Positions 657 to 61,716 of a DNA stretch of 64,000 bases are shown in pieces. How positions within the stretch are numbered: position 1 is the first letter of the stretch; each line of letters begins with the position of its first letter. The DNA comes from Diplonema japonicum (taxonomy: Eukaryota > Protista > Euglenozoa: Diplonemea). The notes beneath the pieces were generated by a model. It was given only the letters and a program-made list of their open reading frames with translations. It did no database searches and had not been told where the DNA came from. The translations under genes were made by a program, and so were the position numbers. Location: positions 1 through 64,000 of the forward strand of contig OZ025655.1 of the NCBI GenBank assembly GCA_964019335.1, written 5' to 3'.

Positions 657-3200
657 CTACTGCATGCTAAACCTCCTACCATGAACAGATTCACGGCGAA
701 CATTCCGCTGGCCACTAGTGCGGAAACTACCACGGTAGCTGCTGTTCCGGTAGCTGTTGGAATAATAAGCACCACCTCCGAAAGAGATAGCAGAAGAATA
801 GCTTCCGCTGTAAGACGAGTAGCGCGTCAACTCAGTAGCAGGGTCTACAGGATACGCAGGTGTAGAAAAGGTGTCTATGCTGCAGCGTGATGAGTCTACA
901 ATTTGAGAAGGCGCAAAGGCCCTCGCCATGCGCGACCCCCCTAGTTCCGCAGGGAAGGTTATTATTTTGAACTTCTCACCTTCCCTCCTCTGGAGGAACA
1001 TTGTCACGGCATCGTCATCATCCACCTCCACCCTGTCGCCGTCTTCTTCCTCATAGTATATAGCTAGGTTCTTTTGATTGAGTTTCTGTTCTATCTTTGC
1101 AATGAACTCCTCATGTGTCGCATTGTTGTCCATAAGCAGTGTCTTGTTGAGATTGTCTCCGTGCATGATCACGAAGAGCTTTGTCTTATTCCCGAACTTC
1201 GACCTTCCGTGGCCTCCTTTCGCAGGCGGGGTCACTCGCTCCCTTTTGTTGATTGGAGAAGGCACTCCTTTGTTGATTGGAGAAGCTAACGGAGAGGGGG
1301 TGTCAGAACCCAGTGAAGGGGTAGGGGAGTCCGTGCCGTCAGACCTCACAGAATCGGCATCAATGCCCAGAGTCTTGGAACTCTTTTCACTCGCATCTAG
1401 CTTAGAGATGACGGAGTTGATAAAATCATCAATATCCTCGTCCTCATCTTCGTCATCCTGAAAAGAGTAATAGTAGTAAAGGAATAGCGTGCAGATACCT
1501 CGCTACGATGCTCCAGCTCAGCAGCCCCCAGAGTGGTCTCCAGGCGTCCTGTGAATCTCTTCCTGGTCTGGTATTCTTCATCCTCTGAAGAATCGGTGGC
1601 ATAATCGTACGTCTTGCCATCCACATCATCCTGTTGGCTTAAGCATGTGACGTGTCCATACCTGCTTTCGCTGGACTCCCTTGCTCAGAGTGTTAAAGTC
1701 AGCATCAAAGTGCTCGTATTCTTGATCCACCAAAACAACGTCATTACGCAGTGGCTTCGGCATCACAACACGATAGCGGGTGCTGGTACCAAACGACACT
1801 ACATGGTTGTGCTGGAGAATCAGCTTCTGCCCAGACCGCACAAGGATGTCGTTCAAATGTGTGTCGCCGTAAAATGGAGCCAAAACGAGCTTGCCACGTC
1901 GCTTGTCCCACATTACGGTCGCATGGTTGTGGGCAATGCCCAACCCACGAAGCGGAACAACCTGCACCCATTGCTTCCTCCAGGGATCGATTCCAAAAAC
2001 TGTAAACCTCAAAATAAAAGGAATGGCAAGCCCCACACGTGAAGCCGGAGCTAAAACCTCGAAATAGGGATAGTCGTGATCTTCTTCAATTGTTTCTATC
2101 CGCACATAAGGACTTTTGGCTACATCGTCCTTCGCCTGGTCAGGATTCCGTATCCATGACAGATCGCTCATGAGGCGCTGCTGGTCTTTACTTACAATCG
2201 AGTCTTTTCCAACATTCCGAATAGACCTCGAATTCTCATAATGCTGCACCTCATCAATTCGTTCCTTCAACATCAACTCGCTCCGTAGGGGTTTCTTAGC
2301 ACGCGGTGTTGAAATCCCAACTGCCAACATGCAGAAGTCCAGACATGCTGTGTTCGTCACATGGTCGTGCTGCTGTGTTCCGAGATGGGCTGCAACCCAG
2401 ATAGTGTTCCCTCCTGTTGCGAAGGGCTGCTTGATGAGCTTTGTAATGGGATTGGGGGTCGGAACTTCAACGCCCTTCTTCCGGAATGCCCTAATGTATT
2501 CTCTGACAGCGGAAGTTGTGGCGCATTCATCGGGGCTGGGCAGGTCAACGAACTGTACGGAGACTATGGTTCCGGCATCGTTGTTAACAGCGATGATGCC
2601 CTCAATCCATACAACCACAGCAGGTTTACGCTTCTCATCGACACCCTCTCTAGCATGGCATGCCTCTTCGATAAGGCCTAAGGTATCCATGATGTCTGCG
2701 TCGCTACGCAGCGTTCGTGTCGTGCGCTCATCCATGCAGTAGTTCCTTCTGTCGTCGATCTGCATTTTGCGTACCGTCCCCGGCGGTGCGAGCACGTCGC
2801 CCAGTTTCTCTGCAACCGACAATATAGTCACACGCACTCCCTTGCCCATCTTCACCATCTGCTTCATAACGCGAATCGCAACACCGTTTTTGTCGGTCAA
2901 CGTGGCGGCCCTTGTTTTTGCGTTTGGGCCATATGTAAAGTAGCAGCAATTATAACCCTTGCTGGCTTGTGTAATAATCTGTGACGCCTGGTTAGCGCAG
3001 AAACCCTTATGATCAGCAGGGCAAACGATCTTCACACCGGGATAGGACTTTTCTTTACCGTCACCAGGATTTCTAATAAACAATGTATCACCTTTGCATG
3101 ATAAATCAGCAGCAGAGGTCGGCAGGAACGCACAAACACGCACTAAGGAAGATGCACCTGCCCTGATGTCCATTTCGAGCAACTGTGATGAGTTAAGCAT
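657..3200 (-). CDS. Degenerate kinesin-3-like motor + FHA + PB1 domain protein (2 introns: 1631-1661, 1458-1498)
   Basis: Kinesin-like segments GYNCCYFTYG, QFVDL, ITKLIKQPFATGGNT; KIF1-type FHA (GIAHNHATV...LQHNHVVSFG...YRVVMP); PB1 OPCA motif YEEEDGDRVEVDDDD. Two GTAT..CAG introns join the three ORFs in frame. Confidence 0.75.
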
Positions 3201-3308
3201 AAATCCTACAACTAACTGTCAATGACACCACACTAAACCGATCGTTAGTTATTGCTCTCTCTAATCTCCTTCGCCTGTTGCATGTGGTTACACAAATTAA
3301 CTAAACGC

Positions 3309-4538
3309 TTATACCTCTGCGTTGGGCACCCAAAAATACACATTCCCTGAATCATGGTCCGAGTCAGTGCAATACAACAGAACGTAGCGCCTGCAGTAAT
3401 AAGAGTGAGAGGTGAGTAATAAGAGTATTCGTCATACTTGGGGTGCCATCTGGCCGCATAGTAGTTCTCTCCAGGAGGAAGCTCAGGAAGCTTCGAAACA
3501 ATCTTAGTAAGGTGATGACATTCCGAAAACCATACCTTCTGAGTCATTGTGTGAACAATGTATAACTCGTTCTTGGAGGCCACGCATGTCAGCTCCCCAT
3601 CGTGGCTAAATGTTATACTTCTAATCTCATCACGGCACACAGAAAAGCAACCCATGCTCTCAAACCTTAACGTCATGAAACTAACAATGCTGTCAGCACT
3701 CCCAATAGCAAAGAACCTGCCCTGCGGGTCAACATCAATGGAGAACACCGACACAGAGTGGCACTGCATGCTTGTCTTCTTGCTCTGCTGCGATATCCCC
3801 GGTGTGCCAGATGTCTTTGAAGGAAGCTGTGAGGTGTAAGTATCCCGTTTCCCCCCATACCGAAAAGGTATCAATAGCACCTGTCTCATTGCAGGCTATC
3901 AAGGTTCCCCCCGAGGGGTCGATGTCGAACTCATTCACGACGTAGTTGAATTTGTAAGTCGTCAGCAAATCGAACTTCTTCGAGTCCATGTTGAAGGAAT
4001 AGACCATCATCCAGTCATCAGAAGTGCCTACGTACACTTGCTGCGCCGTAGGGTGCCAACGCAGGTTCAACCCATGTCCAGCAGACTTACCTTCTGCAGT
4101 TCGGAAATCAGCGCTGGCAATGCAAGCCTCACTCGACTTTTGACGGATGTCCCAAATCTTTAACTTCTCTCCTGCCACTGTTGCAACAATGCTGGGGTCG
4201 TGTGGGTGCCATCTAACATTCGACACCTCTAGCCCATGTCTGTCATCACTTGCTGCCACCTCGAAAACCACCGTTCTACCCCTTTCCAACATCTTCGCCA
4301 GATCCTGCACAACAAGATACCCATCTTTTGTTCCAGATGCGTAGTACCTTCCTTCGCAGTTCCAATCGACGCTCCTTATGCCCTTGTCACGTCGTACTAC
4401 AGTCGTCATTAGCCTGCCACCTGTAGTCTCAGGCCGCCCCGTCTCAAAGAAGTACTTCCTGAACTCTTCCTTCTCTTTCGTCACGAATCCGAATCCATTA
4501 GTCTTGTCCTCAGGGTAATACTCTTCCCATGTTTTCAT
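3309..4538 (-). CDS. THOC3: THO complex subunit 3 (Tex1), WD40 protein; 3 introns (34, 33, 47 nt)
   Basis: WD40 repeats SVDWNCEG, VRWHP, LRWHP, IDVDPQGRFFAIGSADSIVS, and after splicing WHPKRYVLLY...NVYFW, matching the THOC3 pattern. Confidence 0.75.
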
Positions 4539-4593: not shown

Positions 4594-5023
4594 CTAAATG
4601 TAGTTAAAAAGCATCCTATTCTCATTTAAACTCATTTCATCAATAAAAGGCTCAAGCGCCTTTCGCTGCCCCCGAATCCTCGAATTCAGAGTCTTCAAAG
4701 AATGTCTCACAGAAGAGACCTCCTGTTTTACGGAAAGCATCGAGTCAGTGCGCCCTCTGTCTTGGCTGTGGGTAGCTGCTGAGAGCTTAGCATTTGAGCT
4801 CATCTCAGCGATCTCAGACAGAATGTCGTCAAGGGCGGTCTCCGACTGAAGCTGTTCCATCTCCTTTTCTATCGTACGAATCCCATCCTGTAAAACTCTT
4901 GCGGTGTCTGCGTGTGGTGGGACATGCAGAATTGTACATACTGCAAGTAGCCTGGTTCACGGTGAACGTGACAATGCTGCACACAGCTAGCGGCACGCAC
5001 AATATTAATATCTGCCGATTCAT
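4594..5023 (-). CDS. Hypothetical ~131-aa protein, N-terminal hydrophobic segment + coiled coil; one 34-nt intron
   Basis: GTATG...GCAG intron joins ORF 4829-5023 to ORF 4594-4860 in frame. Confidence 0.55.
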
Positions 5024-5086: not shown

Positions 5087-5932
5087 TCACGCCTCCAACT
5101 GTGATACAAATAACTGTATACCCTTTCGATCACCTGATTTGTAATTCGGGCTTTTCATATGTTGAGCACACCAATTCATTACCAACAGACAGCTTCCCAG
5201 CAATTACCATTTTCTTATTCGAAAAATCAAGTAACTGTATTATCGTCTCTGCCGTACATAATACTTTTAGGCAATCATACCATAAGATGTGAACAACTGA
5301 ATGCACGAAGGAGTAACCATAGGGTCCGGAACGGGGGTAATGAACGGACGCAGGGGGTCAGTGGTCTCAAGAACAACTGCCTTCTGCAATGAGAGGATGC
5401 TGTCCCAAGTGTATTTCTCCTTGAACTGCTCTTTGCCTGCTGACACAATGCACAGAGAAGATTCCGTGATATAAATACTGCAAGGCTCAGGAATGCCTTT
5501 AGACATGATTTTGCACGTGTAGGCAGCTATAAGGGACTCCCTAGCAGCTGTTTCCGGAACGTTGCACGCGAAGCTCGATTGGTCATTCAGCTTGTCCCTG
5601 TTCCTCACGTTCTGTTCCAGGCTCGACTTCACAGAAAAAACACTTCTGTCAACCTTGCGCTTCGTTCGTGACAAGAGGACAGACGCTTTCGCCACCAAAC
5701 CATTTCTCTCACTGCTATCCAGTACCGCATCCTGCTCGGCCTGCCTCTGAGACGCCCGCTTTGCTTCTACATCAAAGTGAAACTGCTGGTCCGGTCTCAT
5801 GTATCCCAGACGCGGGCACGTAGGAGGAGGACCCGAGTAGCTGACAGGGTTGTAGCCGCTACGTACCTCCATCTCCGATGTGAACTGCTTCTGGGCTGGC
5901 GCCGCCACTGCATTCGACGCTAGAAACTGCAT
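5087..5932 (-). CDS. GRAM/PH-like domain protein; 3' end uncertain (stop at 5130, 5087 or 5020 depending on introns)
   Basis: LIAAYTCKIMSKGIPEPCSIYITESSLCI...WDSILSLQK resembles a GRAM fold; intron 5249-5280 extends the ORF. Confidence 0.55.
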
Positions 5933-8107: not shown

Positions 8108-8171
8108 TTAACAATAAGCTGTGATTAATGAGCTAAGAGGCCGAGAGTGAGAAAATAACCGAACTATAACT

Positions 8172-8619
8172 CTAAGCGATGCAGCAAGCATCCTGCCCGC
8201 CTTTTAAATTTCGTGGGAACATCATAACCTTCGATGGAAAAGCCTCTCCCTGAACAACGTACTGTCCCTTGATCATCTTACTGTAGCCTTTGGTGCCAGG
8301 CTTGGCCAAAGGGGCCCACCCGCCACCAGGGGTGCGCACATAGTTCGGTGCTGGAGGCTTGTCATAAACAGACTGCAGAATTATGTACAAATCATTATTG
8401 CATACCAAAGGATGGAAGAGTGTAGAAGCGCCAACAACCGTGGCCCTAGGCTTAGTACCCCATGCCGGATCCCAGTCCCTGTCACTGATGACAGGGGAAG
8501 TAGCTGAACCTGAACCCGATGGCTCCAGCTTGAGTGTAACCTGAATGATGAAGTTTCAGAGATGCATTATTCAATACACCAACCTTAGAAACTAAAATAC
8601 AACCGTTGAACATCTCCAT
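8172..8619 (-). CDS. Hypothetical ~123-aa protein ending in CaaX-like CCIA; introns 8541-8583 and 33 nt
   Basis: Splicing gives an open frame MEMFNGCILVSK|VTLKLE...HPL|SVYDKPP...DACCIA; start is uncertain. Confidence 0.45.
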
Positions 8620-8634
8620 GAGTCTTGTGCTACC

Positions 8635-9476
8635 CTATTCGGCAACATCAATTCGTGTTTCAAGAAGTGGCTCGTCGTGGATGGAAGATGTCATGGTGCC
8701 CCGGAGATCTGCTAAGCTGCCTCTTCTGCTGGGCGGTGGCGTATCGACACGGCTAAAATACTTCACAAACTTCGACGCTGGCAACCAATTTATTGCACCT
8801 CTCAGTGTGTACTTCGCCTCGCCGTCGCAGTCAATGAACACCTGTAGTAAGTTATTTGAGTCTGGAGCATACCGACGCAAGTGTCGCTACAGTCCCAGGC
8901 CGCACCACCCCCACAGCGCCCTTCATGTTGAACTCCAGCTTTGAGTGTTTCATCATAACTATATATATTTACATACCTTCCCATCAATATTGTTGCGAAC
9001 CACCACATCGCCTACAACAAAAGGTGTTGCCTCAGCACCCCTTCTGTCGAAATGTTTTTCCATAACTGCTAGCTTGCATGATGCTTTTGCATCTTCTATT
9101 CTATATTTCATCTCGTCCCTGTATAACTGCTATTCATCCCTGAAGCATACTTATCTGTCGTGTGGATGGACCTAACAGTAACACGCCGCCCTACACTTTC
9201 TTCTCCCTCTAATGTACCTACCTCACCAGCAAATCTAAAGGCAACAGAAGGGTCTTGCATGTTCCGTGTCAACACGTCTCCAGCTTTATATCTCGGCCGC
9301 CTCGCCTGAGGCTGCTTTTCCCCAGCCCCAGACTGTCCCTGCGAACACATGTTCTTGTATTCCCCATTTAGCTCAGTCGCAGCATGGCACGCCCTATACC
9401 TATTCAGGCGATACACGAGAAATATCGCTAGAAGTACAACCAGCACAACGCCCCCACATAAGATGGCTGCAATCAT
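8635..9476 (-). CDS. Hypothetical single-pass membrane protein with two internal SH3-like repeats; 3 introns
   Basis: N-terminal TM; repeats YKAGDVLTRN...FRFAGEVGTL and FVVGDVVVRN...FNMKGAVGVV; three GTATG introns join the ORFs; C-terminal DEPLL dileucine-like motif. Confidence 0.6.
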
Positions 9477-9712: not shown

Positions 9713-10288
9713 CTACTTCTTCTTACCCTTCTTCTTGCCGCCAAACATGAAGCCGTCATCGTCCTTCTTCTTGAACTGCGCCATGTTGAAGCCAGCAGGG
9801 AGCTCTACCTTTCTCTCCTCCTTCTTCATCTTCTGCTGGAGCGCTGCTCTCTCTTCGGCCTTCTTCTCTAAGTCAGCCTGGGCAGCCTCATCCCTCTTCT
9901 GGATCTCTTCAGCCTTCTTGGCCTCTTCCTGCTCCTGTTCCACTGTCTTTGAGCCCTCTTCCTCCTTGTCCAGATGGTCGAAGTTCCCTGCACCGTCTTC
10001 AAACATCTTGATGCCCTTCAACTTGCTCTTCACCTTGCCCACATCCTTGTTGAATGCCTCGATCTTCTTGTTGCACTGTTCATCAACAATCTTCACGAGC
10101 TCCTTCACCTCTTCGGGAGTGGCCTCGGACAGCGTCTGCTGAAGAAGTGCGTTGAGCATAAGCACTGCATTGGCATCGCCGTCCTTTGCTGACAGCGTCT
10201 GCTTGCTGATCGCCTTGAAAACAGCGTCAACGTAACTCTCGTAGTCCGCCTTGGTGCGGGGGTACATCTGCTCAATAGAGCCTTGCAT
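9713..10288 (-). CDS. eIF3j-like protein (intronless)
   Basis: IEQMYPRTKADYESYVDAVFKAI...MLNALLQQTLSEATPEEVKELVKIVDEQCNKK resembles the eIF3j helical domain; strong codon bias; CAG acceptor at 10304-10306. Confidence 0.5.
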   Translation of the reverse strand: MQGSIEQMYPRTKADYESYVDAVFKAISKQTLSAKDGDANAVLMLNALLQQTLSEATPEEVKELVKIVDEQCNKKIEAFNKDVGKVKSKLKGIKMFEDGAGNFDHLDKEEEGSKTVEQEQEEAKKAEEIQKRDEAAQADLEKKAEERAALQQKMKKEERKVELPAGFNMAQFKKKDDDGFMFGGKKKGKKK

Positions 10289-10544: not shown

Positions 10545-11030
10545 CTAGTAAAGTTCGACCTTGTTTGCCTCGTTTGCAATGCTCTCTGCGTGTGCCTTGA
10601 GCTCTTCTGCAACGGCCTGGCTGGTCACATTTACCACAGCTTTCTTGATTGCCTGACGCTTCGCCGACTCCCATGCTCCTGAGGCACCCGGGATGTCCGG
10701 GATGCTGTTCTCAGGGTTATCGTCACCCATGTCGCTCAACATTCGTGACTGCTCGTTACGTGCGTCACGTGAAATGTCAAAGTCGTAGTCCATGTCGTCA
10801 GCAAATCTCTCGATCATGTCCTGCAGATACCTATCTTCCATCGTCTTCTCATGCGCCTCTTCCTTCGATAAGTCCTTGTGTTTTACCTTAACTGCAATGT
10901 ACTTGTTCTGGATCTGCTTAAAAAGATCCGCGTTACGACACTTCCTGCAGTCCAAACCCATTTTCCGAGCGTTCATTTTGGGAACAGGGGCATCGGACTT
11001 CTTGCCCGGCGATCCGCTGCAGTTTCCCAT
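10545..11030 (-). CDS. Hypothetical 161-aa protein with dual-acylation N-terminus (MGNCSG)
   Basis: Clean intronless ORF; MGxC myristoylation/palmitoylation motif. Confidence 0.7.
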   Translation of the reverse strand: MGNCSGSPGKKSDAPVPKMNARKMGLDCRKCRNADLFKQIQNKYIAVKVKHKDLSKEEAHEKTMEDRYLQDMIERFADDMDYDFDISRDARNEQSRMLSDMGDDNPENSIPDIPGASGAWESAKRQAIKKAVVNVTSQAVAEELKAHAESIANEANKVELY

Positions 11031-11260: not shown

Positions 11261-11500
11261 CTAATAACACCATTCATTCACAGCTCTGTCGGCTCGAAGC
11301 TCGGCATCAACAGTACCGTCGGGCAGTACGCCGACGCTTTTAGGCTTCACGTCTGAGGGTGAGCGCAGATGCCCTCGCTCGGCCTTGTAAGCCCTGACCT
11401 TAATGAGCACAGATGAAAGCGACAGCGCTAAGAGTGTTTACCCCAACCCTTGTTCATACATACTAGTAGCAACGTAAGCCAGGTTCTTCATAGTAGTCAT
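11261..11500 (-). CDS. Hidden 67-aa protein (MTTMKNLAYVATTLSLSSVLIKVRAYKAERGHL...NEWCY); intron 11428-11463
   Basis: Absent from the ORF track; a 36-nt GTATG...TAG intron containing a stop joins two exons; CAG acceptor ~30 nt upstream of the ATG. Confidence 0.65.
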
Positions 11501-13877: not shown

Positions 13878-13909
<32 letters not shown>

Positions 13910-14686
13910 CTTTAATCGCAGTTCTTCTTCTTGGGCTTTCTGTGTTTCATTCTGATCTTGAGAGTACCCTTGTTGTTGCGGGTACTGATGGAACTGCTGG
14001 TGCTGGTGCTGATGCTGGTGATTTTGTTGGTGATATTGAAGATGCTGGTGCTGGTTCTGATGCTGGTGTTGCTGTTGCTGGTGTTGGTGCTGATGTTGGT
14101 GCTGGTGTTGGTGTTGGTGTTGGTGTTGGTGCTGGTGGAACTGGTGATGGTGCTGATGCTGAGGAACCGGCGGTAGATGCTGATGCTGATGCTGAGGGGG
14201 CTGGTAGGGGGGGGGCTGCTGTTGGAAATTGTGCTGGTTCTGATGCTGGTGCTGGTGTTGGTGTTGGTGCTGGTAGGAAGACATTTGGTGCTGGTGCTGG
14301 TGATGCTGGTGCTGGTGCTGGTGCTGGTGTTGGTGTTGGTGCCCGTGATGCTGGTGCTGATGCTGATGCTGATGTTGGTGGTGCATGTGTTGATGCTGCT
14401 GAGGCTGATGCTGATGTTGGTGTTGGTGCTGAGGCATCTGGCCTTGCCCTTGGTGCTGCTGTGGGTGCTGAAGAGGGTGAGTATGGGGATGCAACTGGTG
14501 CGGGTGAGGATGCGGGGGATACGGGTGCTGATTATGTGCATGATGCCCCCCGAAGTAAGGAGACTGCTGTGGTTGTGGATGCGAGTCATGCTGCTGCGGA
14601 GGCCGCTGCTGTTGTGGCTGCTGTGGCTGCTGGGGTTGCTGTGGCTGCTGCACAGTCTTTCTTTTATGTGGCGGCTTATACATCAT
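11818..14686 (-). CDS. Hypothetical protein: Q/H-rich low-complexity N-terminus, charged helix, RGG segment, unknown C-terminal domain; 12 introns
   Basis: Twelve 31-39-nt GT-AG introns join the fragments in frame, including a 15-nt exon at 12002-12016. Confidence 0.65.
13870..14650 (-). repeat. Coding microsatellite: poly-Q and (QH)n hexamer arrays (CAR-CAY)
   Basis: tgctgg/tgttgg/tgctga runs on the + strand. Confidence 0.9.
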
Positions 14687-26163: not shown

Positions 26164-26278
26164 AAGTCATATTCTCCTGCTTTCTGATTTAAAGTACACC
26201 CGATAGAAAATATGATACTGAACCTGACATGTCATGACATGGATGATAATCTCTTAGTTGTTGTTTCGTATGTTGATT

Positions 26279-50184: not shown

Positions 50185-51504
50185 CTACGACGCGCAGTAC
50201 CCATCGAGCTGTGTGGTGATTCTATCGCACACGAGTGGGAGGTTCTCGCTTATAAGGCGTGCCTGCAAATGTCGCTGCCATTCACCTTGCATACCTGCTC
50301 TTTATTAATCATGTTCTCCTCTAAGTATCGCTGCCACACGTTGCGGTTATCGGTGTCTTTCCAACTGTGTACATGTGGCATGTTTGATGACATACTCGTT
50401 GATGATCGCAAGGTACACCTTAACGAAGTCCTGCACCCTCGGCATCGCTGGCGTAATAAAGTTATCAGGGCATACAACACTGCCAGCTGGGAACCTTACA
50501 ACAAACCACCGACCCTGCACGGCACCGAAGGCCGACTCGCCGGTGATGACTCCAATGCTATTAGGAGTGATGTGGCCTTGGAACGGCGGATGCTTGCTTA
50601 ACACTGTGTCCTGCAAAATGGTATTCCGTAGCAGCTGCTCGTCCACCTGCACACGCACCCGGCTGCCGACTCCTATCTCTGGAAAATATAAATCAGATGC
50701 CGCACCGACCCTCGGTGTCCCCCGACAGTCAAGAAATGTCGCCACTGTGTCCACACCATTTCCCTCGTTGTGCATTCCCGTCACAGTCACCTCTATCGTC
50801 TTAGTCAACAACTGCCTAAGTCCCACAACCGTGTGCTCTACGCTGCTGACATCCACCTCCTCGTCCTCCTCCCTTGGTACATCAATCTGCTGCATGCTTC
50901 CGATTTCTGTAGCGCCCTGCGCATCGAGACCTACCATGTACTTGACTAACTCTGTGGCCCTAGGGTCCCTCAGCTCGTTCATTAAGCGCACAAGCTTTTC
51001 AATGTCGCACACATACAGCATAATCATGTTTTGGAAGATGTCGCTGGCCGTCTCTACGATGTGAGAGGGGGTGTTGCAGGCAGATATCCGGAACTCTACC
51101 CTACGCGTTACGTATCTCTCGAAAACTGCTTCGTACGGGGTATTGCGCAGCCATTCCAACACAGAGCCTGCAGAAAACTCCTTAGCTAGAAGTTTTAAGA
51201 GGCTTATTATGTCAGGCAGCATCAGCGACTCGCATGCTGATACTAATAGCTGAACCTGAAGAACACCTGAACCACACATACGAACGAAGACACCAATCAA
51301 TAAACCAATTACCTGTACGTCATTTGCTGCACATGCACCCTGCACGATCATCTGCGCACAGTCAGTGCACAGACTGTAACCGCGCTCCTTCACTATCGCA
51401 TGTAATGTTCCAGGTAGTGTATAGCCAAACCTAACTACAAGGGCTTTCCACGTCGCAACACTCGGCCATTGCAATGCAGCGATAACCTCGCGGCTGCAGC
51501 CCAT
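50185..51504 (-). CDS. Hypothetical protein; at least 2 introns; start uncertain
   Basis: Long ORF; 31- and 32-nt GTATG introns extend it to TAG at 50185; CACAG acceptor before MGCSRE. Confidence 0.6.
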
Positions 51505-51647: not shown

Positions 51648-53087
51648 TTACCTCATAGGTGTCAAGAGACTCTTGACCACATGACGTTCACGTTCAGGAG
51701 ACTGAGTGGGAGAGGAAAGTGGGGTTGTGCTCCTTGGCTCAGGCGTTCTTTGCGGGGTCCGGATGATGTGCTGACGGTAGTAGGAAGGATTATGGGGTGG
51801 CGGTGGAGTAAACCGCAGGTGGGCGGGCCTTGACGGAGATTTCAACGAAACACCGGGGTGGCTGCTGAGTGCTTGACATTCAAACGACTCTACAGAAGGA
51901 GATCTGGTCAACATAGGCACCTTCTTTGGCTCTCTACGCGCTATGAAGGGAAGTGCCACGTGATCAGGTGGTGCTCTGGCACTGACATGGCTAGGGCTCA
52001 CAGGCTCTTCGCTGCTCGCGACAGACTGTGATACACTGTCCTCAATGTAATACTCCGTCTGATCGAACAGAACCCTCTCCCTCCTAATACTGCTCATCAG
52101 CCAGTGCCCAGCTTCGTATCGCCCTACTGCTAGTGTCGACAAGCAAACGACAACGACAGTTCCGTCAGCCTGGCAGGCCGTGCAGTAACCCTTTACATGC
52201 GGAGAAGCAACAACCTTCCATTCATCTCGTTCCAAATCAAAGAGAAGCGTGCAGCCAGTATCTGCAGCATGAACTAGCATACTGTGGTCGTCAACAGCCG
52301 CAGCGAAACCCTTGCCACCTGTGTACAGGCGTCGGAGGTGGTTCTCTGGACACCATCCTGACTCGTGTCCTCGACGAACCTTCACCCACCCGGCAGGCCC
52401 TTTATCTCGTATCTGATGTTGGGGCACCCCGATCAGTGAGTCCCCCTTTCTCAGGTCCATCTGCCTCGAGTCGGTTCTTGAGAAATTATAACGTGCCTCA
52501 AAGGCACCGCATTGAGATGACCGCCACTCATGCTCTGTGGTGTGGTACATCCATAAGTTAGGCGAGGCCTCGCCAGTATCGATGGCAGTGCCGCCGATGT
52601 TGACAAGCAGGTTTCTAAAAAGCACCGTGGCATGGCCCCACACAAAGGGGGAGGGCCCAGTGAGGATGGCCCGCCAGTTATTTGCTTGGCAGTCTAGTTC
52701 AAAAACAGAACTAGGGCTATTGGAAAGACCACCGCACAAGTATAACTTCTCGTCCCTTGTCGTCACTGTGTGGTGTGTGCATGCGTCTGGCACATCACCG
52801 TGGGTCGTGCACTCGAACCATGTGCTACTTGTCAGGTCTAACACAGGTAGCACTTGCGGCTTGTACTCTCCGCGTTGATCAGAACCGTGCACCACATACA
52901 TTAAGTCCCTGTTGATGGCAGCTGCATGGTTGCAGCGACGTGGTGCCACACCGCTGCAGTGCACAGTGCTCAGCACGTCCCCTTCAAGGCGGAAAATATC
53001 ACCACTGGCGCCATTCTTCGTCTTCCCCCCATGAATGAGTATAGAGTACCCGTCGGCAACAGAGGCATACCCTTCCTCCGGAAGCAT
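51648..53087 (-). CDS. Kelch-repeat protein with inserted SH3 domain and Pro/Ser-rich tail
   Basis: Kelch blades (ILIHGG, RCNHAA, LYLCGG, WGHAT...NIGG); SH3 EARYNF...MDLRKGD...GWVKV...GWCPENHL. Confidence 0.8.
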   Translation of the reverse strand: MLPEEGYASVADGYSILIHGGKTKNGASGDIFRLEGDVLSTVHCSGVAPRRCNHAAAINRDLMYVVHGSDQRGEYKPQVLPVLDLTSSTWFECTTHGDVPDACTHHTVTTRDEKLYLCGGLSNSPSSVFELDCQANNWRAILTGPSPFVWGHATVLFRNLLVNIGGTAIDTGEASPNLWMYHTTEHEWRSSQCGAFEARYNFSRTDSRQMDLRKGDSLIGVPQHQIRDKGPAGWVKVRRGHESGWCPENHLRRLYTGGKGFAAAVDDHSMLVHAADTGCTLLFDLERDEWKVVASPHVKGYCTACQADGTVVVVCLSTLAVGRYEAGHWLMSSIRRERVLFDQTEYYIEDSVSQSVASSEEPVSPSHVSARAPPDHVALPFIARREPKKVPMLTRSPSVESFECQALSSHPGVSLKSPSRPAHLRFTPPPPHNPSYYRQHIIRTPQRTPEPRSTTPLSSPTQSPERERHVVKSLLTPMR

Positions 53088-53150
53088 TTCATGAGCCTGG
53101 TGCGTGGTAAATTAAGATGTAAATACTACTATAAAACACTCCTCTGATAG

Positions 53151-54934
53151 CTACTCATTCTTATCCCTTTTTCTCTTCTTGCCTGCAGATGGCTTCGCTT
53201 CGCTTCCTAAAATGCTGCTAAGCATCTTGCTCTTCTTTGCTTCCTTCTTCTCCGCCTCCTCCCAGTCTTCATAGCGATGCTTGTACTGCTCCAAGCGCAG
53301 CTTTTTCACCGTCATGCGTGTAGAATAGATGCTCTGCAGCTGCTTGATACCTGCCGACAACTCCTCGGCAACGGTCTTCCGGTAGCTAAGGGGAAGCACT
53401 GCGTAAAGCTTTTCGACTACGAATGCAGCAGAGCCACACGACGTGGTGACCTGGAGGAACGACCCCTTAAGCTGGTTTGAAAACTTCTTAATCTGTGGCA
53501 GTTAGTAAGAAGACTCAGCGCATACCTCCTTCTCCTTAGCATTTGCGATGAAACCCTCAATCATAGTGCTCCCGGCGACTGTAGATAGCAGGTACGATAT
53601 CTGTGCGTGTTACCTTGGACCCTAGACTCGCATACCTTGTCAACTGTAAGCTCAGCAACACCCTTGTACAGTGCTGCTGTGGCTTCGCTAGGTCCGTAAG
53701 ACAGCATGGCTGAGAGCATCGCTACCCCATGATGGCCGTCGAGTTGTATCAGCGTATCGAATAGCGAACCTGTTACCTGCAGAGCACTCTTCACAAGACT
53801 CATTACGCTGCTCCTCGCGCTTGGGTGCCTTTTGGCACCTTCGCACACCCCACTCAGCACACCAAGCGCCCACTTATTGTAAATCGCCGTGGCTCCTGTA
53901 TTAGTAATAAACGTGAAAGGAGAATACCTTTAGTAAGTGCTTCAACTACTTCCTGCATAGACTCCTCATCCGGGCAGTTCGCGACCCACCTGTGATGATC
54001 ACCAATGTTCACTTGTATACCTCTGGACTGCGTAGAGACCTCCGCGCTGCATCATCTCCTCCCAGTGCTTCACAAAGTGAGAGTGCAGCTTCTTGTGGCA
54101 TGCACTTGACTTCAAGCATGCCTCGAGAACCCGTGACGACACGGAAGACTTGCAGATGTCATCCATGTTCGCCGCTACCTGATCGTGGAGCTCGCTGCCC
54201 TCCCACACAGAGGCAAGCACATCGAGAATACCCGCTGCCTGAGTGCTGCATATCCTGTTCACAAAAATGTCATCCTTAGCTAAGACCTTCACGATTGCCT
54301 TCCCGAGCTTGTCAAGGGGAACCCCGCTGTCGAGGGGCTCCATCACCGTCACAGCCTCTTTGTGTCTCTTCTCGGGAGGGACCTTCCCCGCGAGGACGTA
54401 AATCAATACACGCAGCGCGTAGGAGCCCCCCGGGTGCAATATGATATCAATTAATTTGATATCGCTCTCTTCGTCACCCTCGATGAGCTCGTCAACAGTG
54501 CCCTTTAGCAAAGCCTTCAACGTGGGCAGGCCAGTGGAGTCCTCTTCATCTGAAGACTTCATCAGCTTGTCAGACTTCAGCATCTGCTGACATTGCTTCA
54601 ATAGCTTCTCAACAACCCTGCTGGCCGTATTCTGCGTGCACAGGTAACACAATTTACCAGCTATCTTGAAGTAGAAACTTCTCAAATGTACAGCTGTACT
54701 CCACTCCAGCACCTGCTCCACGATCCTACTGATCTCTCCGTTGTTGAACAGCCTCGCTCCACCTGATGTGAAATGCATTCCGATCGCAGCGTGTGCCGCT
54801 TCCAAAGCACCATGCTGCTGGTCCTCGGAAGCCTCTTGGATCCTTTCGCTCATCTGCCTCCACATCGCAATCTGGTCTGAGTGCTCCTCACGCAGATCCT
54901 TCGCATACTTCATCTTCTTATTGTCAGATGACAT
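53151..54934 (-). CDS. NOP9: Nucleolar protein 9 (Puf-like); 4 introns
   Basis: ISRIVEQVL, ASRVVEKLL, HPGGSYALRVLIYVLAG, SSRVLEACL, GLYAVQR; basic C-terminal tail. Confidence 0.7.
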
Positions 54935-55024
54935 CTTTGATCCTAGAATAATCTGTTAAGAAACCACAGAAGCCACAAAAAACAACGTACTGTCTAAATA
55001 CTAATTCAATCCTACTCTGCGAAA

Positions 55025-55378
55025 CTAAAAATCGATGCACCTCCCTCCCTTTTCCCAATCGCCGTACCTTGTGGGCTCCAAACCAGGGTAACCGTTGATC
55101 TATGGTGTGGTGCATTGTGTCACGGTGCATACCTCGCCTGTCTTCTCATTGCGGTGAAGCAGCTCCTCATCCTTGCCAACATTCTTGAAGTAGTCAGGGC
55201 TCCCGACACTCAGCGCCATCCTGGCGGCCTGATCATTTACCGGTTTGTACTCCTGCGTCTGCCTAGCAGATGCCAAGAAAGTTGACGAGTTCCCATCCCT
55301 CTTCGCCCACGATGTGAACTGAATATCAGCGGGATTAGCCCCCCACTGCGCTCGTGCTGCAAGGGATCTTCTGAACAT
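55025..55378 (-). CDS. SDHAF4: Succinate dehydrogenase assembly factor 4 (DUF1674); intron 55100-55132
   Basis: Mitochondrial-type presequence MFRRSLAARA; after splicing [30 protein letters not shown]. Confidence 0.92.
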
Positions 55379-55588: not shown

Positions 55589-56278
55589 TCACCACGACGA
55601 CTCGAAAAGGTCTGGTGAGGCAGGGGTGTCAGCGGCGGATGCAGGGACAGGTGCCACAGGTACGGGAGTGGACGCTGCAACAGGCTCCGCTTGCTTCGAA
55701 GGCTTGTCTGGGCTGTCGAAGAAAGGGCTGGTCAATGGGGGTGTGGGGCAGTCACCGCGTACCTTGAGCTCGGCCATGCGTGTAATCATCATGTAGTCCA
55801 CTGGGGATAAAAATTCATAAGTGCGTGTCTTGCCTGAGGCTGGGTCTATGCAACATCTAAAGCGTGTAACCCATATGTCTCTGAGGACGACACTGGCTGA
55901 CATCTCCTTGGTTACAACTCCAGGCAGCTCTCTTGATCTTTTGAAGAGCCCCGTCTTCCTCCCGTCCCGCACCACCTCATCACGCCACTCCACCCGTGAG
56001 CTCCCTTTTGCATCTATGCTTAGTACCTTACCTAGCCAGAAGGACTCCCCGTTGGCCGACTCCTCCGGGTCCACTGCAATCGCGAACAAGTCCCCGACCC
56101 TTGCCCTTGCCCGGTGCGCCCTTGGTTTCTTCTTCAAACTGCTGCTGCTCAGTCTGGGAGGCCTGCACACCTTAATCGGCTGCGACTCCCTCTTCGGGCT
56201 GGGGAGCGTGAATAACCCAATGTCCTTGTCGTGCTGCAACGTCTCGATCCCCAGTGGGGTGTTGGTGAGGATGTCCAT
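55589..56278 (-). CDS. Hypothetical protein with a Tudor/BAH-like beta-barrel segment
   Basis: Intronless ORF; ARVGDLFAI...FWLGKVLSI...RVEW. Confidence 0.6.
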   Translation of the reverse strand: MDILTNTPLGIETLQHDKDIGLFTLPSPKRESQPIKVCRPPRLSSSSLKKKPRAHRARARVGDLFAIAVDPEESANGESFWLGKVLSIDAKGSSRVEWRDEVVRDGRKTGLFKRSRELPGVVTKEMSASVVLRDIWVTRFRCCIDPASGKTRTYEFLSPVDYMMITRMAELKVRGDCPTPPLTSPFFDSPDKPSKQAEPVAASTPVPVAPVPASAADTPASPDLFESSW

Positions 56279-56653: not shown

Positions 56654-56676
56654 GGGGGGCGGGGGGGGGGGGGGGG
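56654..56676 (+). repeat. G6-C-G16 homopolymer tract (poly-C on the coding strand)
   Basis: Read directly. Confidence 0.9.
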
Positions 56677-57987: not shown

Positions 57988-58747
57988 TTACATGAGAGAA
58001 CACTGGCATGTGGCTTCTAGTGGCTGCGGCCGTGGTGGAACATCAGACGGCCGAGGGGATAGTGGGGACGACGGCTCTGCAGAAATGTCCTCTATCAAAC
58101 GCTCGTCGCCTTTGAGAGAGAAGGTAGCGGACTGCAACCATGTGTTCAGCCGTGCCTCGTCCTTCAACTCCACAATGTGTCTCAGAGACTCTGCAGCCTG
58201 CGGAAAAAAAAACAAACACTGAACTGTATTGCCCAACCATCACACCTCTATTCCTTTCTCCTTCACTATCTCAGACGTCTCCTCACGAAGCGCCCACAGC
58301 AGGTTCTCGATGGTGTCCACCTTGGTGACTATCTTCTGCATGACCATCCTGGTGTCCTCTCGTTCGCGGCGCAGCCCGTTCTTCAGGCAATCGATGTTCC
58401 ACTGCTGTCTTTTGTACATCTCCCCAGCCTGTTTGAGTATCCCAGCATGGTTGGCTGCTAAGCATACCTCATCCAGTAGCTTCTCCCGCTCATCGATCTC
58501 ACCTTGCAGCATTCTAAGGTTCCTCGCGTACATCGTCTCTGATACCCCTGCCTGCACCCCCACATCCACCGTTGCAACCTCCCTAAAGGCATTCTTATAC
58601 ACCCTGTTGTGCTGTGGGCTCGTTGACGGCGTGATATTTGGCGTCCCTCTGCTGCTCGATTCGTAGCCGACCGAGTCCGGCTGTGCATGTTGTGTTGTGT
58701 TGCTTCTATCATACCAAACTGTCCAGACTCCATGTTTTCGTCTGCAT
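57988..58747 (-). CDS. Hypothetical coiled-coil protein with C-terminal CaaX box (CQCSLM); 2 introns (34, 48 nt)
   Basis: MQTKTWSLDSL|PDSV...KGIE|AAESL...CSLM stop. Confidence 0.65.
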
Positions 58748-58872
58748 GTTGGACCCCCGGCAGCCCTGCAGTGGTGCTTAAAGAAAAACAAGAAACTACA
58801 AAAAAGAAAACTAGGCAAATATGAAACGCAACCACTCGCCAAGCCACTCGTATGAGGGTATGCTTTGAATAC

Positions 58873-60183
58873 CTAAAACATGTCAACACTGCCCATGGCC
58901 TTGATCACATTCTCGTACACGCCGCAGCCGCGCACGAAGACGGACTGGGACAGGTACTCGTCGTGCTCGTGGAGGAGGATGGGGTCACGGTTGATGGGGC
59001 TGAAACCAAAAGCAGCAATGCCCAGCTCCCTAAGGAACCTGCTGTCCGTGGCGGCAGGGAACACCTCTTTCTCAAGCTTCACTCCGCCTGACACAACGGC
59101 GTCCCTGAAAGCCACCCAGAAAGGGTTTGAGTCACTGAGCTCTGTGACATTGTGCTCTTTGATTGGGTCGTATCCATATTTCCACTGCACAGCACCTTCT
59201 TCAGCACCCCATTCCTTCTCCGCTTCCCTAGCCCACTGGTTGAAGAGGCCTTCGAGTTCCTCGTATTTCGTCGAGATTGGCACTCGCACATCAAACATCG
59301 CCTTCGCCGTTGTGGGGATCACGTTCACTGCGAAAGTCTTCCCGCCATCGGCGGTCACACCAGCGCGCAGCACAGTCAGGTTCACGGTGGTCACGTCGCC
59401 AAGCTTCTTGCACTTTGCGTGCCCGCAGCCGTACTCCGTCTCGCTCCCGTGAAGGATCCTTTCGCTCTCCCTTCTATGGGCGAGGGCCCTGGTGCACCAT
59501 GCGTGCAGGCAGTGAGTAGCAACACCTTCGATGAACCTGCTCCCATGCCCAGTTGGACCCATGGCCTCAACTTCTACCCACCACGGCAGTCGCTCACCAT
59601 AGAAGACGGTGTATGCATCCTCGGTAGGGTTGGAGAGCCCTTCGTCCAAGGCACACTCCACGTTCAAAGCTTTGAACTCATCAGACTTAGTGAGGAAGCC
59701 CATCCCAGGGCCGCCGATCTCCTCATCAGGAACCATGGACAGGTGTATATCCCTCACGGGCTGGTAACCAGCTGCCTTCAGTCTGGAGATAGCAACGAGG
59801 TACTGCATTCCAACACACTTCATGTCCTGTGTACCTCTTCCGTAGATCCTTGGGCCGTACTTAAAGGACGGGTCGTCAACTACCTTACCTTCCCACGCAG
59901 CTTCTGTCCATTTCTCCTCCACTACAGGCACAACGTCATAGTGCGAGTTCAAGAGGAGCGACTTGAGCTCCGGATTCTTACCCTTCCAAGTCGCTAGCAG
60001 GATGGGCTTCTTGGGGACGTAGTTATCAAGGACCTTCGTCTCGAGGCCTATCTCCTTGCAGATGTCAGAGATGAAGCTGATGCAGGCCTCGTTGGCGCCA
60101 TTGGTGTGCCCTTCGTGCGATATAGTCTTGAACTGCAAGTACCTGCGGAACATGCTCAGTGCCCTCTCATCGCTGAACGCCAT
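58873..60183 (-). CDS. ACY1: Aminoacylase-1 (M20A peptidase family), intronless
   Basis: LLNSHYDVVP, IYGRGTQDMKC, VPDEEIGG, LDEG, GHGS, FPAATDSRFLR, LLHEHDEYL. Confidence 0.95.
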   Translation of the reverse strand: MAFSDERALSMFRRYLQFKTISHEGHTNGANEACISFISDICKEIGLETKVLDNYVPKKPILLATWKGKNPELKSLLLNSHYDVVPVVEEKWTEAAWEGKVVDDPSFKYGPRIYGRGTQDMKCVGMQYLVAISRLKAAGYQPVRDIHLSMVPDEEIGGPGMGFLTKSDEFKALNVECALDEGLSNPTEDAYTVFYGERLPWWVEVEAMGPTGHGSRFIEGVATHCLHAWCTRALAHRRESERILHGSETEYGCGHAKCKKLGDVTTVNLTVLRAGVTADGGKTFAVNVIPTTAKAMFDVRVPISTKYEELEGLFNQWAREAEKEWGAEEGAVQWKYGYDPIKEHNVTELSDSNPFWVAFRDAVVSGGVKLEKEVFPAATDSRFLRELGIAAFGFSPINRDPILLHEHDEYLSQSVFVRGCGVYENVIKAMGSVDMF

Positions 60184-60348
60184 CTTAATGCTGGAGTGCG
60201 GTGAGGTGTGAACAAAACAAAAATAATTAAAGGTTGCACAGCTTATAATGGAATGGAATTTTTGAAAAGGCATTCATAAGCACTAAGTCACGGTCCCTGA
60301 TGAAGGGGGGTGAATAGCGGTGCTTCTGGTTACGTGTCAAGTTTGGCG

Positions 60349-61716
60349 CTAGTATGCACCCGATTGGATAGTGGCCGCCTTAGCAAGCCACTCATCGCCC
60401 CTGGGCCTTGTTTCGGAAGCTTGTTTGAGGTCATCTCTTGTGCGGAGCTGCTCGGAGCTGCGGGGGTATGGCCTCTTGAGGTTCAAGCTGGGGTTCAAGG
60501 TGACCCCGAATCCAGGCTTCGTCGGGTCGAGGTCGATGTAGCCGTCCTTCGGGAGGGGCTCGTCAAGGAAGAGCCCTCCGAAGTAGGGCTGGATAACGTC
60601 TGCCTTGGGTGCAAGCATAATGAGCTCAGCCATGGGGCAATTCTGAAAGGCATACTGCAGATGGTAGGAGTACACACTGCTGCCGTGGGGGATCACAGGC
60701 ACGTCATAGGCGGCAGCCATGGCACACACCTTCCTTGCCTCCGTGATGCCACCGCACCACGTGATGTCTGGCTGCAGAACGTCGCAGCATTTCTTTTCCA
60801 ACAGCTGCCTGAATCCGTATCTCGTGTACTCGTGTTCACCACACGTGAGGAGTGTCTTGTGCCCTACCTTCCTTTTCACCTCGGCGTAGCCTTCGTAGTC
60901 GTCAGGATGGAGGTGTTCTTCCACCCACTTCACGCCACCAGGAACCTCTTTGCTTATCTTGCGCACGAGCTCAATGGTGTACGGGACAGTGAGGGACATG
61001 TAGCAATCAATTGCAAGGGGGAAGTCCTCACCAACAGAGGCCCTCACCTCCTTGATCCTTTCGATGTTGGCTTTCATTCCCTTGTCGCCGTCTGCCGGGC
61101 CATAGGGGAGGGGGATCTTAGCCTGCACAAAGCCCATTTCCTTTGCAAGGTCGGCGCGAACAGTGGTAGCGTAGACAGGCAGCCGGTCCTTAGTCTTGCC
61201 CCCGAGGAGCTGGTATACAGGCTCGTTGCGGAGCTTCCCTAAAGCGTCCCAAAGAGCAAGGTCGACGGTGCTGATGGCCTGGATGGTGAGCCCCTTTCTG
61301 CCGTAGTTGATGGTGCCGCGGTACATCTGGTCCCATATGTACTCGATGTTCCTTGGGTCCTGTCCCTCTACGAAGCGCGACAGGTGGTTCTCGACGATGA
61401 AGCAGCCTGGCTCGCCGGCAATGGCGATGCCGACCCCCACGATGCCGTTCGTGAGCTCTGCCTCCACGACCATGCTGCCGATGGCATCGATGCCCCACTG
61501 CTTCCTGGACGCCTTGTACAGGGGGTAGCAGCTCATAGGGTTCGAGATAGGAGTATCAACGATCCAGTGCCCCCCTGCCTGTGCGTGACAGTCAGCCCCA
61601 CCGCCGGCTTTCTCCTCCTCACCCTTCGAGCCAATCACGTAAGCCCTCAATTCCTTCACAGTCACCGCCCCCTTCACAGGCACGACAGGCGGATGCTCTC
61701 CTAGACTCACGGACAT
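60349..61716 (-). CDS. rhmD: L-rhamnonate/L-galactonate dehydratase (mandelate racemase-like enolase superfamily), intronless
   Basis: GHWIVDTPISNPMS, VDLALWDALGK, KIPLPYGP, DCYMSL, KWVEEHLHPDD, GEHEYT, QPDITWCGG, PHGSSVYSYH. Confidence 0.9.
   Translation of the reverse strand: MSVSLGEHPPVVPVKGAVTVKELRAYVIGSKGEEEKAGGGADCHAQAGGHWIVDTPISNPMSCYPLYKASRKQWGIDAIGSMVVEAELTNGIVGVGIAIAGEPGCFIVENHLSRFVEGQDPRNIEYIWDQMYRGTINYGRKGLTIQAISTVDLALWDALGKLRNEPVYQLLGGKTKDRLPVYATTVRADLAKEMGFVQAKIPLPYGPADGDKGMKANIERIKEVRASVGEDFPLAIDCYMSLTVPYTIELVRKISKEVPGGVKWVEEHLHPDDYEGYAEVKRKVGHKTLLTCGEHEYTRYGFRQLLEKKCCDVLQPDITWCGGITEARKVCAMAAAYDVPVIPHGSSVYSYHLQYAFQNCPMAELIMLAPKADVIQPYFGGLFLDEPLPKDGYIDLDPTKPGFGVTLNPSLNLKRPYPRSSEQLRTRDDLKQASETRPRGDEWLAKAATIQSGAY

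What the first reader, a model, noticed from the sequence alone, without database searches (positions are those of the whole stretch)
657..61716. Kinetoplastid-style one-strand gene array combined with ~70 miniature cis-introns
Seen: about 31 of 31 genes are on the minus strand, spacers are pyrimidine-skewed on that strand to the window end, and about 70 GT-AG introns of 29-49 nt interrupt the genes. Known: trypanosomatids have directional polycistronic clusters resolved by SL trans-splicing but almost no cis-introns. Inference: this genome processes a long polycistronic pre-mRNA with dense cis-splicing and trans-splicing together, possibly resembling a stage before intron loss in kinetoplastids.
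Basis: partly seen in the sequence, partly recalled or inferred. Interest (0 to 1): 0.8.

Follow-up and report, generated by a model that had tools for sequence, protein, structure and literature searches.

The report
Compact Diplonema gene array with mini-introns
This DNA from a marine flagellate of the genus Diplonema carries about 31 genes all facing one way, broken by about 77 tiny introns and given a shared spliced-leader cap in the RNA; the genes are likely copied as long multi-gene transcripts, a layout already described for its close relatives, so this is an unusually compact example rather than a new system.

Summary
My curated models give 31 genes, all on the minus strand, and 77 GT-AG introns of 30-48 nt (median 34). 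Spliced RNA contigs list 23 of these introns as exact joints. A euglenozoan spliced leader is seen joined at AG acceptors of 3 genes, and poly(A) tails at 2. Two protein trees put the organism inside diplonemids, next to Diplonema, and outside kinetoplastids. The combination is published: Paradiplonema papillatum has one-strand clusters of up to about 120 genes, a leader on essentially all mRNAs and GT-AG introns in 41% of genes (PMC10161547). D. japonicum has 41-nt GTATG…CAG introns (PMC12621601). Polycistronic transcription itself remains inferred. 'A stage before kinetoplastid intron loss' holds only as an analogy: this is a living sister lineage. One detail was not found in my searches: both poly(A) sites lie about 30-33 nt above the next likely leader acceptor, the length of the introns. 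Earlier scan notes also called this genome Diplonema; none covered this architecture.

The parts
60349..61716 (-). Gene 1, mandelate racemase/enolase-superfamily enzyme, 455 aa, no intron; likely leader acceptor AG ending 61726
   Evidence: Pfam MR_MLE_N/C; RNA contigs begin at 61726 with 17-21 unaligned head letters in 2 runs
58873..60183 (-). Gene 2, M20 peptidase (aminoacylase-like), 436 aa, no intron; spliced leader joined at AG ending 60191
   Evidence: Pfam; leader loose end in X6, X7, X8
57988..58747 (-). Gene 3, 212 aa unknown; introns 58714-58681, 58467-58429, 58245-58198; long 3' UTR to about 56350
   Evidence: 3 of 3 introns are RNA joints in 4 runs
55589..56278 (-). Gene 4, 229 aa unknown, no intron
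   Evidence: model; no Pfam hit
55025..55378 (-). Gene 5, DUF1674 protein (SDHAF4-like, name recalled), intron 55132-55100; leader joined at 55391; poly(A) at 54983
   Evidence: Pfam; joint, leader and poly(A) loose ends
54953..54982 (-). 30-nt T-rich spacer between the poly(A) site of gene 5 and the first likely acceptor AG of gene 6 (a second AG lies at 54943)
   Evidence: poly(A) seen in 1 run, no genomic A-tract; acceptor inferred from sequence
53151..54934 (-). Gene 6, NOP9-like PUF protein; introns 54020-53990, 53927-53896, 53635-53601, 53525-53493
   Evidence: Pfam; 4 of 4 introns are RNA joints
51648..53087 (-). Gene 7, Kelch-repeat protein, no intron; likely acceptor 53097
   Evidence: Pfam; contig heads with 22-23 unaligned letters at 53097 in 4 runs
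50185..51504 (-). Gene 8, 418 aa unknown; introns 50395-50365, 50294-50263; likely acceptor 51511
   Evidence: 2 of 2 RNA joints; acceptor inferred from where contigs break
42207..50068 (-). Gene 9, 2583-aa inositol polyphosphate 5-phosphatase-like protein with long Trp-rich repeats; introns 46668-46633, 44359-44328, 42350-42309
   Evidence: Pfam; 2 RNA joints; third intron absent from transcript-derived homologues
39915..41802 (-). Gene 10, 574 aa with a hydrophobic N-terminus; 5 modelled introns
   Evidence: model only
37757..39658 (-). Gene 11, 633 aa unknown, no intron
   Evidence: ORF and model
35052..37689 (-). Gene 12, GAF-GAF adenylate/guanylate cyclase; intron 36753-36708
   Evidence: Pfam; intron modelled
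33736..34407 (-). Gene 13, 211 aa unknown; 1 modelled intron
   Evidence: model
32171..33674 (-). Gene 14, ankyrin-repeat protein; 3 modelled introns
   Evidence: Pfam Ank_2 just under cut-off; model
29521..32127 (-). Gene 15, 858 aa unknown; 1 modelled intron
   Evidence: model, split from gene 16 by hand
27356..29434 (-). Gene 16, IQ-motif protein; 3 modelled introns
   Evidence: Pfam IQ; model
26279..27253 (-). Gene 17, IMP4 (Brix domain), 286 aa; introns 27151-27112, 26589-26553, 26398-26362; poly(A) at 26213
   Evidence: 2 RNA joints and poly(A); spliced model aligns without gaps over 286 aa to a D. ambulator transcript protein
26180..26212 (-). 33-nt spacer between the IMP4 poly(A) site and the likely acceptor of gene 18
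   Evidence: poly(A) loose end; contig head with 22 unaligned letters at 26180, letters not displayed
21790..26163 (-). Gene 18, 1418-aa cysteine-rich protein with several hydrophobic stretches; 3 modelled introns
   Evidence: model; an RNA contig ends at the donor 22632
17378..21434 (-). Gene 19, LRR protein, 1235 aa; 10 modelled introns; likely acceptor 21455
   Evidence: Pfam LRR; contig pieces fit introns 20219-20183 and 20051-20020
15652..16594 (-). Gene 20, casein kinase II beta; introns 16408-16372, 16283-16247, 16136-16093, 15812-15777
   Evidence: Pfam; 4 of 4 RNA joints in 2 runs
11818..14686 (-). Gene 21, Gln/His-rich protein, 816 aa; 12 modelled introns
   Evidence: model, start curated by hand
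11261..11500 (-). Gene 22, 67 aa; intron 11463-11428
   Evidence: RNA joint
10545..11030 (-). Gene 23, 161 aa unknown, no intron
   Evidence: model
9713..10288 (-). Gene 24, weak eIF3j-like hit, no intron; spliced leader joined at 10304
   Evidence: Pfam below cut-off; leader loose end in X6
8172..9476 (-). Genes 25/26 (one or two genes; in-frame TAG at 8637-8635); introns 9150-9119, 8976-8939, 8872-8842, 8405-8373 confirmed, 8577-8541 doubtful; likely acceptor 9485
   Evidence: 4 RNA joints; contig arithmetic
6048..8107 (-). Gene 27, 640 aa with a weak annexin hit; 4 modelled introns
   Evidence: Pfam below cut-off; model
5130..5932 (-). Gene 28, 256 aa unknown; 1 modelled intron
   Evidence: model
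4594..5023 (-). Gene 29, 131 aa; 1 modelled intron; weakest model
   Evidence: model score 5
3245..4538 (-). Gene 30, THOC3-like WD40 protein; 4 modelled introns
   Evidence: Pfam; model
657..3200 (-). Gene 31, kinesin-like and PB1 protein; 2 modelled introns
   Evidence: Pfam; model

Best explanation
This is a compact diplonemid (Diplonema) gene cluster whose 31 same-strand genes are likely transcribed as one or a few long multi-gene precursors; the RNA shows a spliced leader joined at gene starts, poly(A) tails at gene ends and 30-48-nt GT-AG introns removed. Shown: one strand, spliced introns, leader addition at internal genes, poly(A). Inferred: (1) RNA polymerase II runs through many genes from a distant start. 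(2) Leader addition at each T-tract/AG acceptor is coupled to cleavage and polyadenylation of the upstream mRNA, about 30 nt away where measured. (3) The U2 spliceosome recognises each mini-intron across its length, from a strong G/GTATG donor to an A/C-rich CAG. An acceptor with such a donor about 34 nt upstream would be cis-spliced; one preceded by a T-rich tract and no donor would take the leader.
For: One strand, 31 of 31 genes. 23 RNA joints, all GT-AG on minus. Leader letters at 10304, 55391 and 60191 match the 3' end of a published euglenozoan leader exon, and its core is not encoded in the window. 5 more gene starts have unaligned contig heads ending exactly at an AG (61726, 53097, 26180, 21455, 9485). 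Stop-to-start gaps have a median of about 120 nt; 18 of 30 are 200 nt or less. Stop to next likely acceptor is 39-61 nt for 8 genes, little room for a promoter per gene. Poly(A) lies 30 and 33 nt above the next likely acceptor. In 3 runs of one study a contig runs from gene 7 through the acceptor of gene 8 (a weak hint only). Neighbouring genes have unrelated functions. The same model is proposed for P. papillatum (PMC10161547, section 9). Cis and trans acceptors have the same make-up at -12..-4; trans acceptors are more pyrimidine-rich at -26..-13 (p = 1e-4 for all 31 assigned sites) and 49% T at -50..-27.
Against: No precursor RNA, transcription start or cap was observed; all runs are contigs. 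Leader letters are displayed for only 3 of 31 genes (40 of 64 kb laid, tables truncated). 22 of the 31 trans acceptors are guesses (nearest YAG). With only the 9 RNA-supported sites the composition difference is not significant (p = 0.06). Absence of GTATG above trans acceptors (0 of 31) is uninformative: 0.4 expected by chance. Each poly(A)-to-acceptor distance rests on one run and an inferred acceptor. Several spacers are long (644-1709 nt) and could hold internal starts. No genome was held, so strand switching elsewhere was not checked.
Confidence: 0.82

Rival explanations
1. Each gene, or each small group, has its own promoter and short outron, and is leader trans-spliced as a monocistronic transcript. 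The common orientation is kept for another reason, such as avoiding polymerase collisions.
For: Leader addition alone does not prove polycistrony: tunicates add it to monocistronic genes too (PMC7986045 passages). [quoted passage not shown] 4 of 30 gaps exceed 600 nt.
Against: 18 of 30 gaps are 200 nt or less and 8 leave 39-61 nt from stop to the next acceptor. Long spacers are largely covered by RNA contigs as 3' UTRs (56349-58196, 14871-15775).
Confidence: 0.12
2. The organism is an early-branching kinetoplastid that has not yet lost its introns, a direct window on the pre-loss stage.
For: Kinetoplastid-like one-strand array, compact spacers and a euglenozoan leader.
Against: Both trees place it inside diplonemids at 100/100 support, with kinetoplastid rows on a separate branch. 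IMP4 is 91% identical to D. ambulator and 58% to Neobodo. Free-living prokinetoplastids were reported without introns (PMC7859406 passages).
Confidence: 0.02
3. The mini-introns are artefacts (frameshift errors or over-fitted gene models) and the strand bias is a chance run.
For: 54 of 77 introns have no listed RNA joint; the model allowed only GT-AG introns of 26-60 nt.
Against: 23 exact RNA joints, the 11 tested against genomic runs absent from them. Motif excess of 40 against 0 on the other strand and 6 in shuffles. Genomic contigs of two runs match the laid stretch with 0 differences in the listed long pieces. 31 of 31 on one strand has probability about 1e-9 under random orientation.
Confidence: 0.01

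Closest known systems
Paradiplonema (Diplonema) papillatum nuclear gene clusters (Valach et al. 2023, PMC10161547; sections 7 and 9 read whole, other passages)
   Same: Unidirectional arrays of 5-120 genes, leader on essentially all mRNAs, canonical GT-AG introns, polycistronic transcription inferred rather than shown.
   Different: [quoted passage not shown] Here 24 of 31 genes have introns (2.5 per gene), all modelled at 30-48 nt, with a median stop-to-start gap of about 120 nt.
Diplonema japonicum introns (Thakur et al. 2025, PMC12621601; parts 1-4 of 8 of the text read)
   Same: 98% canonical, median 41 nt, (G)/GTATG donor, A-rich tract instead of a polypyrimidine tract, CAG acceptor, YTRAY in about 14% (here 10 of 77).
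   Different: Median here is 34 nt in one gene-dense window. The one protein compared is 88% identical to the EukProt D. japonicum protein, so probably a different species. The parts I read do not treat strand clusters or leader acceptors.
Trypanosomatid polycistronic transcription units (PMC6597758, PMC4538839; passages)
   Same: One-strand arrays of unrelated genes; leader added at an AG after a pyrimidine tract; poly(A) placed upstream of the next acceptor.
   Different: Only 2-3 genes have cis-introns (PMC11613528). Poly(A) lies about 100 nt from the tract in T. brucei, and a median 556 nt from the leader site in L. major, against about 30 nt in the two cases seen here.
Tunicate operons (Oikopleura, Ciona; PMC7986045 passages)
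   Same: One leader, cis-introns in the same genomes (recalled), and very short intercistronic distances (median about 31 bp in Oikopleura under a 60-bp cut-off, about 1 bp in Ciona).
   Different: Operons of a few genes among monocistronic genes, in an unrelated lineage; not 30-gene one-strand arrays.

Membership tests
Diplonemidae (genus Diplonema) nuclear genome | Proteins branch inside diplonemids | tested here: met
   5-phosphatase: sister to D. japonicum 98/95, diplonemid branch 100/100 (19 rows, midpoint root). IMP4: diplonemid branch 100/100, 91% to D. ambulator (26 rows).
Diplonemidae (genus Diplonema) nuclear genome | Canonical GT-AG introns with GTATG donor, A-rich 3' part, CAG | tested here: met
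   23 of 23 short RNA joints GT-AG; GTATG 64 of 77, A 36% at -12..-4; matches PMC12621601.
Diplonemidae (genus Diplonema) nuclear genome | Identity with a named species | tested here: inconclusive
   Best named hits are 88% (D. japonicum) and 91% (D. ambulator) on different proteins; neither is identical.
Euglenozoan polycistronic transcription unit | Long run of same-strand, functionally unrelated genes | tested here: met
   31 of 31 minus.
Euglenozoan polycistronic transcription unit | Spliced leader added at AG acceptors of internal genes | tested here: met
   Letters shown at 3 genes, inferred at 5-6 more; match the 3' end of entry 'Euglenozoa 14' in PMC3795323. That this entry is Diplonema's own is recalled, not shown by the passage.
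Euglenozoan polycistronic transcription unit | Poly(A) site set by the next gene's acceptor | tested here: inconclusive
   2 sites, at 30 and 33 nt. 13 RNA-contig 3' ends lie 18-176 nt above the next acceptor, 10 of them within 60 nt; a weak hint.
Euglenozoan polycistronic transcription unit | One start, multi-gene precursor RNA, base J or chromatin marks at the ends | not testable with these tools
   Only assembled contigs available; no genome held.
Kinetoplastea | Near absence of cis-introns | tested here: not met
   77 modelled, 23 RNA-confirmed introns in 61 kb.
Kinetoplastea | Proteins branch with kinetoplastids | tested here: not met
Non-canonical (hemistasiid/euglenid-type) introns | Ends other than GT-AG, paired termini | tested here: not met
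   All 23 short RNA joints are GT-AG; my model could not have found other ends, and 33 joint rows were not displayed.
U2-type spliceosomal introns | Branch point and spliceosome dependence | tested here: inconclusive
   YTRAY in 10 of 77 only; dependence not testable.

The most novel reading that the evidence does not exclude
This Diplonema has shrunk both its introns and its intercistronic spacers to one footprint of about 30-35 nt. The upstream mRNA is polyadenylated about 30 nt from the next leader acceptor, the tightest coupling I found for a euglenozoan. Cis and trans acceptors look alike in their last 12 bases, so a single cue, a GTATG donor about 34 nt upstream, decides between cis- and trans-splicing. 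That would explain how dense introns survive inside polycistronic units and make the 'cis/trans competition drove kinetoplastid intron loss' idea directly testable.
Probability: 0.35. Interest if true: 0.5.

Novelty: new member of a known kind. Interest (0 to 1): 0.25.

Why it matters
The architecture itself is known for diplonemids, so the finding mostly adds a compact, intron-dense example. Its use is as a test bed. A preprint suggests kinetoplastids lost introns because cis- and trans-splicing compete for the same acceptors (10.1101/2025.10.27.684775, passage). Here about 77 cis acceptors and about 31 trans acceptors of near-identical ending coexist in 61 kb, so that competition is not prohibitive, at least when introns are tiny with strong donors. 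Mis-addition of the leader to cis acceptors could be counted with existing RNA reads.

Tried and rejected
No whole genome was held, so genome-wide strand switching was not measured. The run search listed no holder on record as RNA; I treat X6-X10 as RNA because their contigs are spliced, leader-bearing or tailed. Runs with shares under 0.2 were not used. Rfam at gathering thresholds gave 0 matches: no leader RNA gene, snRNA or other family in the window. The first gene model fused genes through spurious long introns and was replaced. In curation I dropped 4 of 81 introns of the second model (29524, 29483, 14681, 13967) and moved 4 starts. Plus-strand models were rejected as shadows of minus genes. 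The first IMP4 search used a length window that excluded the true orthologues and was repeated. The hypothesis that trans acceptors differ from cis acceptors in their last 12 bases was tested and not supported. The repeat finder returned only coding repeats and low-complexity tracts among the 20 of 60 or more families shown. The D. japonicum genome note holds no text on introns or strands. Paper searches found no report of poly(A)-to-acceptor distances in diplonemids, but the main supplement of PMC10161547 (sections on introns, UTRs and polycistronic units) was too large to read and may contain them. A word search of earlier scan notes found nothing on this architecture.
Full report
Observation. 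I read the whole window and scanned 53 long ORFs against Pfam: 21 of 39 minus-strand ORFs and 0 of 14 plus-strand ORFs had hits. A codon model with short introns, run on both strands, gave 30 minus models with 81 introns. After hand curation (one split, four introns dropped, four starts moved) there are 31 genes and 77 introns of 30-48 nt, median 34. Phases are 48/17/12, GTATG begins 64 and CAG ends 64. Of 34 plus-strand models, 33 lie inside minus genes and are shadows. The pattern GTATG…ACAG at intron length occurs 40 times on minus, 0 on plus and 6.0 +/- 2.5 in shuffles. Spacers are modestly pyrimidine-rich on the sense strand (56%; T-runs 68 against A-runs 10).

RNA evidence. Sixteen runs were listed, none on record as RNA. 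Laying contigs showed that X1 and X4 are genomic and that X6-X10 are spliced. In 7001-27000, 11 of the 15 displayed joints (47 in all) are GT-AG introns on the minus strand, absent from both genomic runs. In 44001-64000, 12 of 15 displayed joints (16 in all) are such introns, each in all four runs (two studies), and they equal the 12 modelled there. That match is not independent, as the final model was trained on them; the earlier blind pass had 10 of 12 exactly. Loose ends at 10304, 55391 and 60191, each at an AG 7-15 nt above a start codon, read as the 3' 23-25 letters of a published euglenozoan leader exon (PMC3795323 passage), and its core is not in the window. Contigs with unaligned heads end at AGs at 61726, 53097, 26180, 21455 and 9485. 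Poly(A) tails appear at 54983 and 26213, where the genome is not A-rich.

Organism. The 5-phosphatase exon's best hits are D. japonicum 88%, hemistasiids 69-71%, a kinetoplastid 51%. The tree puts the window with D. japonicum (98/95) inside diplonemids (100/100). IMP4 is 91% identical to D. ambulator, 85% to Flectonema, 81% to D. papillatum and 58% to Neobodo, and falls in a diplonemid branch at 100/100 with kinetoplastids apart. The spliced IMP4 model aligns without gaps to the D. ambulator transcript protein, which supports all three of its introns. So this is a Diplonema; the species is not determined. Four of four intron positions examined are shared with other diplonemids, where read-through or retained introns appear at the same sites and are longer (about 72 nt for two of them). 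The mini-introns therefore look like shrunken inherited introns, at least within Diplonemidae.

How it most likely works. Shown: one strand, cis-splicing, leader addition to internal genes, polyadenylation. Inferred: long multi-gene precursors. Stop-to-start gaps have a median of about 120 nt, 18 of 30 are 200 nt or less, and 8 genes leave 39-61 nt from stop to the next likely acceptor. The two poly(A) sites lie 30 and 33 nt above the next likely acceptor. Ten of 13 RNA-contig 3' ends lie within 60 nt of it, a weak hint. Cis and trans acceptors are alike at -12..-4. Trans acceptors are more pyrimidine-rich further up (p = 1e-4 for 31 assigned sites, p = 0.06 for the 9 with RNA support). No trans acceptor has GTATG 28-50 nt upstream, but only 0.4 would be expected by chance. 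I therefore propose, untested, that a strong donor about 34 nt upstream commits an acceptor to cis-splicing and that acceptors without one take the leader. Against: no precursor or start site was seen, several spacers are long, and no genome was available to count strand switches.

Comparison. P. papillatum has unidirectional arrays of 5-120 genes, a leader on essentially all mRNAs and GT-AG introns in 41% of genes, and its authors infer kinetoplastid-like processing (PMC10161547). D. japonicum introns have a median of 41 nt, GTATG donors, A-rich tracts and CAG ends (PMC12621601). Two preprints trace one-strand clusters to before the split of kinetoplastids and diplonemids (10.1101/2025.10.27.684775 and 10.64898/2026.07.29.740908, passages). 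Massive intron loss is placed in the kinetoplastid ancestor (PMC11613528 passages), and prokinetoplastids lack introns (PMC7859406 passages). What differs is compaction: more introns per gene, all tiny, and spacers far shorter than in P. papillatum or trypanosomatids (about 100 nt from tract to poly(A) in T. brucei, PMC6597758; median 556 nt in L. major, PMC4538839). Equally short intercistronic distances are known from tunicate operons (PMC7986045). Searches found no diplonemid poly(A)-to-acceptor measurement, but the main supplement of PMC10161547 could not be read.

Verdict. A real and well-supported feature; a new, compact member of a known kind. Interest 0.25. The remaining lead is the roughly 30-nt coupling distance and the cis/trans choice rule (probability 0.35, interest 0.5 if true), which raw RNA reads could test at once.

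Noticed in passing
window 10338-10385 (partial copies at 16803-16821 and 62398-62414): A short element in a spacer. Genomic depth in its 667-nt bin is 2594 against about 16 elsewhere in run X1, roughly 2000 copy-equivalents at 85% likeness, and it is also deep in RNA contigs. Other copies continue into a motif that also lies at window 58-80. Possibly a SINE- or SIDER-like retroposon remnant in UTRs.
   Followed up: partly
window 1-48: Six copies of an 8-base G-rich repeat open the window, next to the motif shared with the dispersed element. An earlier scan note on this genome describes an 8-base telomere-like repeat targeted by a retroelement; I did not check that it is the same repeat.
   Followed up: no
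window 8637-8541: An in-frame TAG is followed by a continuing coding-like frame. Contig arithmetic suggests the main RNA is unspliced at the candidate intron 8577-8541 while another path joins at 8541. It may be a minor cis event, a leader added at a cis-type acceptor, stop read-through or two genes.
   Followed up: partly
window 50068-42207: A 2583-aa inositol 5-phosphatase-like protein with about 1800 residues of Trp-rich and acidic repeats; RNA joints link the repeat exons to the enzyme exon. The repeat region had no Pfam hit.
   Followed up: partly
window 26180 and 8939: An intron (8976-8939, RNA-confirmed) and a likely leader site (26180) use AAG rather than YAG acceptors.
   Followed up: no
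window 9481-9473: A two-codon upstream ORF lies between the likely leader site 9485 and the start at 9476.
   Followed up: no
runs X10, X12, X13: Three other coded organisms hold 39-47% of the sampled words; X10's contigs are about 98% alike and share 8 of the listed intron joints, so near-sister taxa exist for comparing intron length and spacer evolution.
   Followed up: partly
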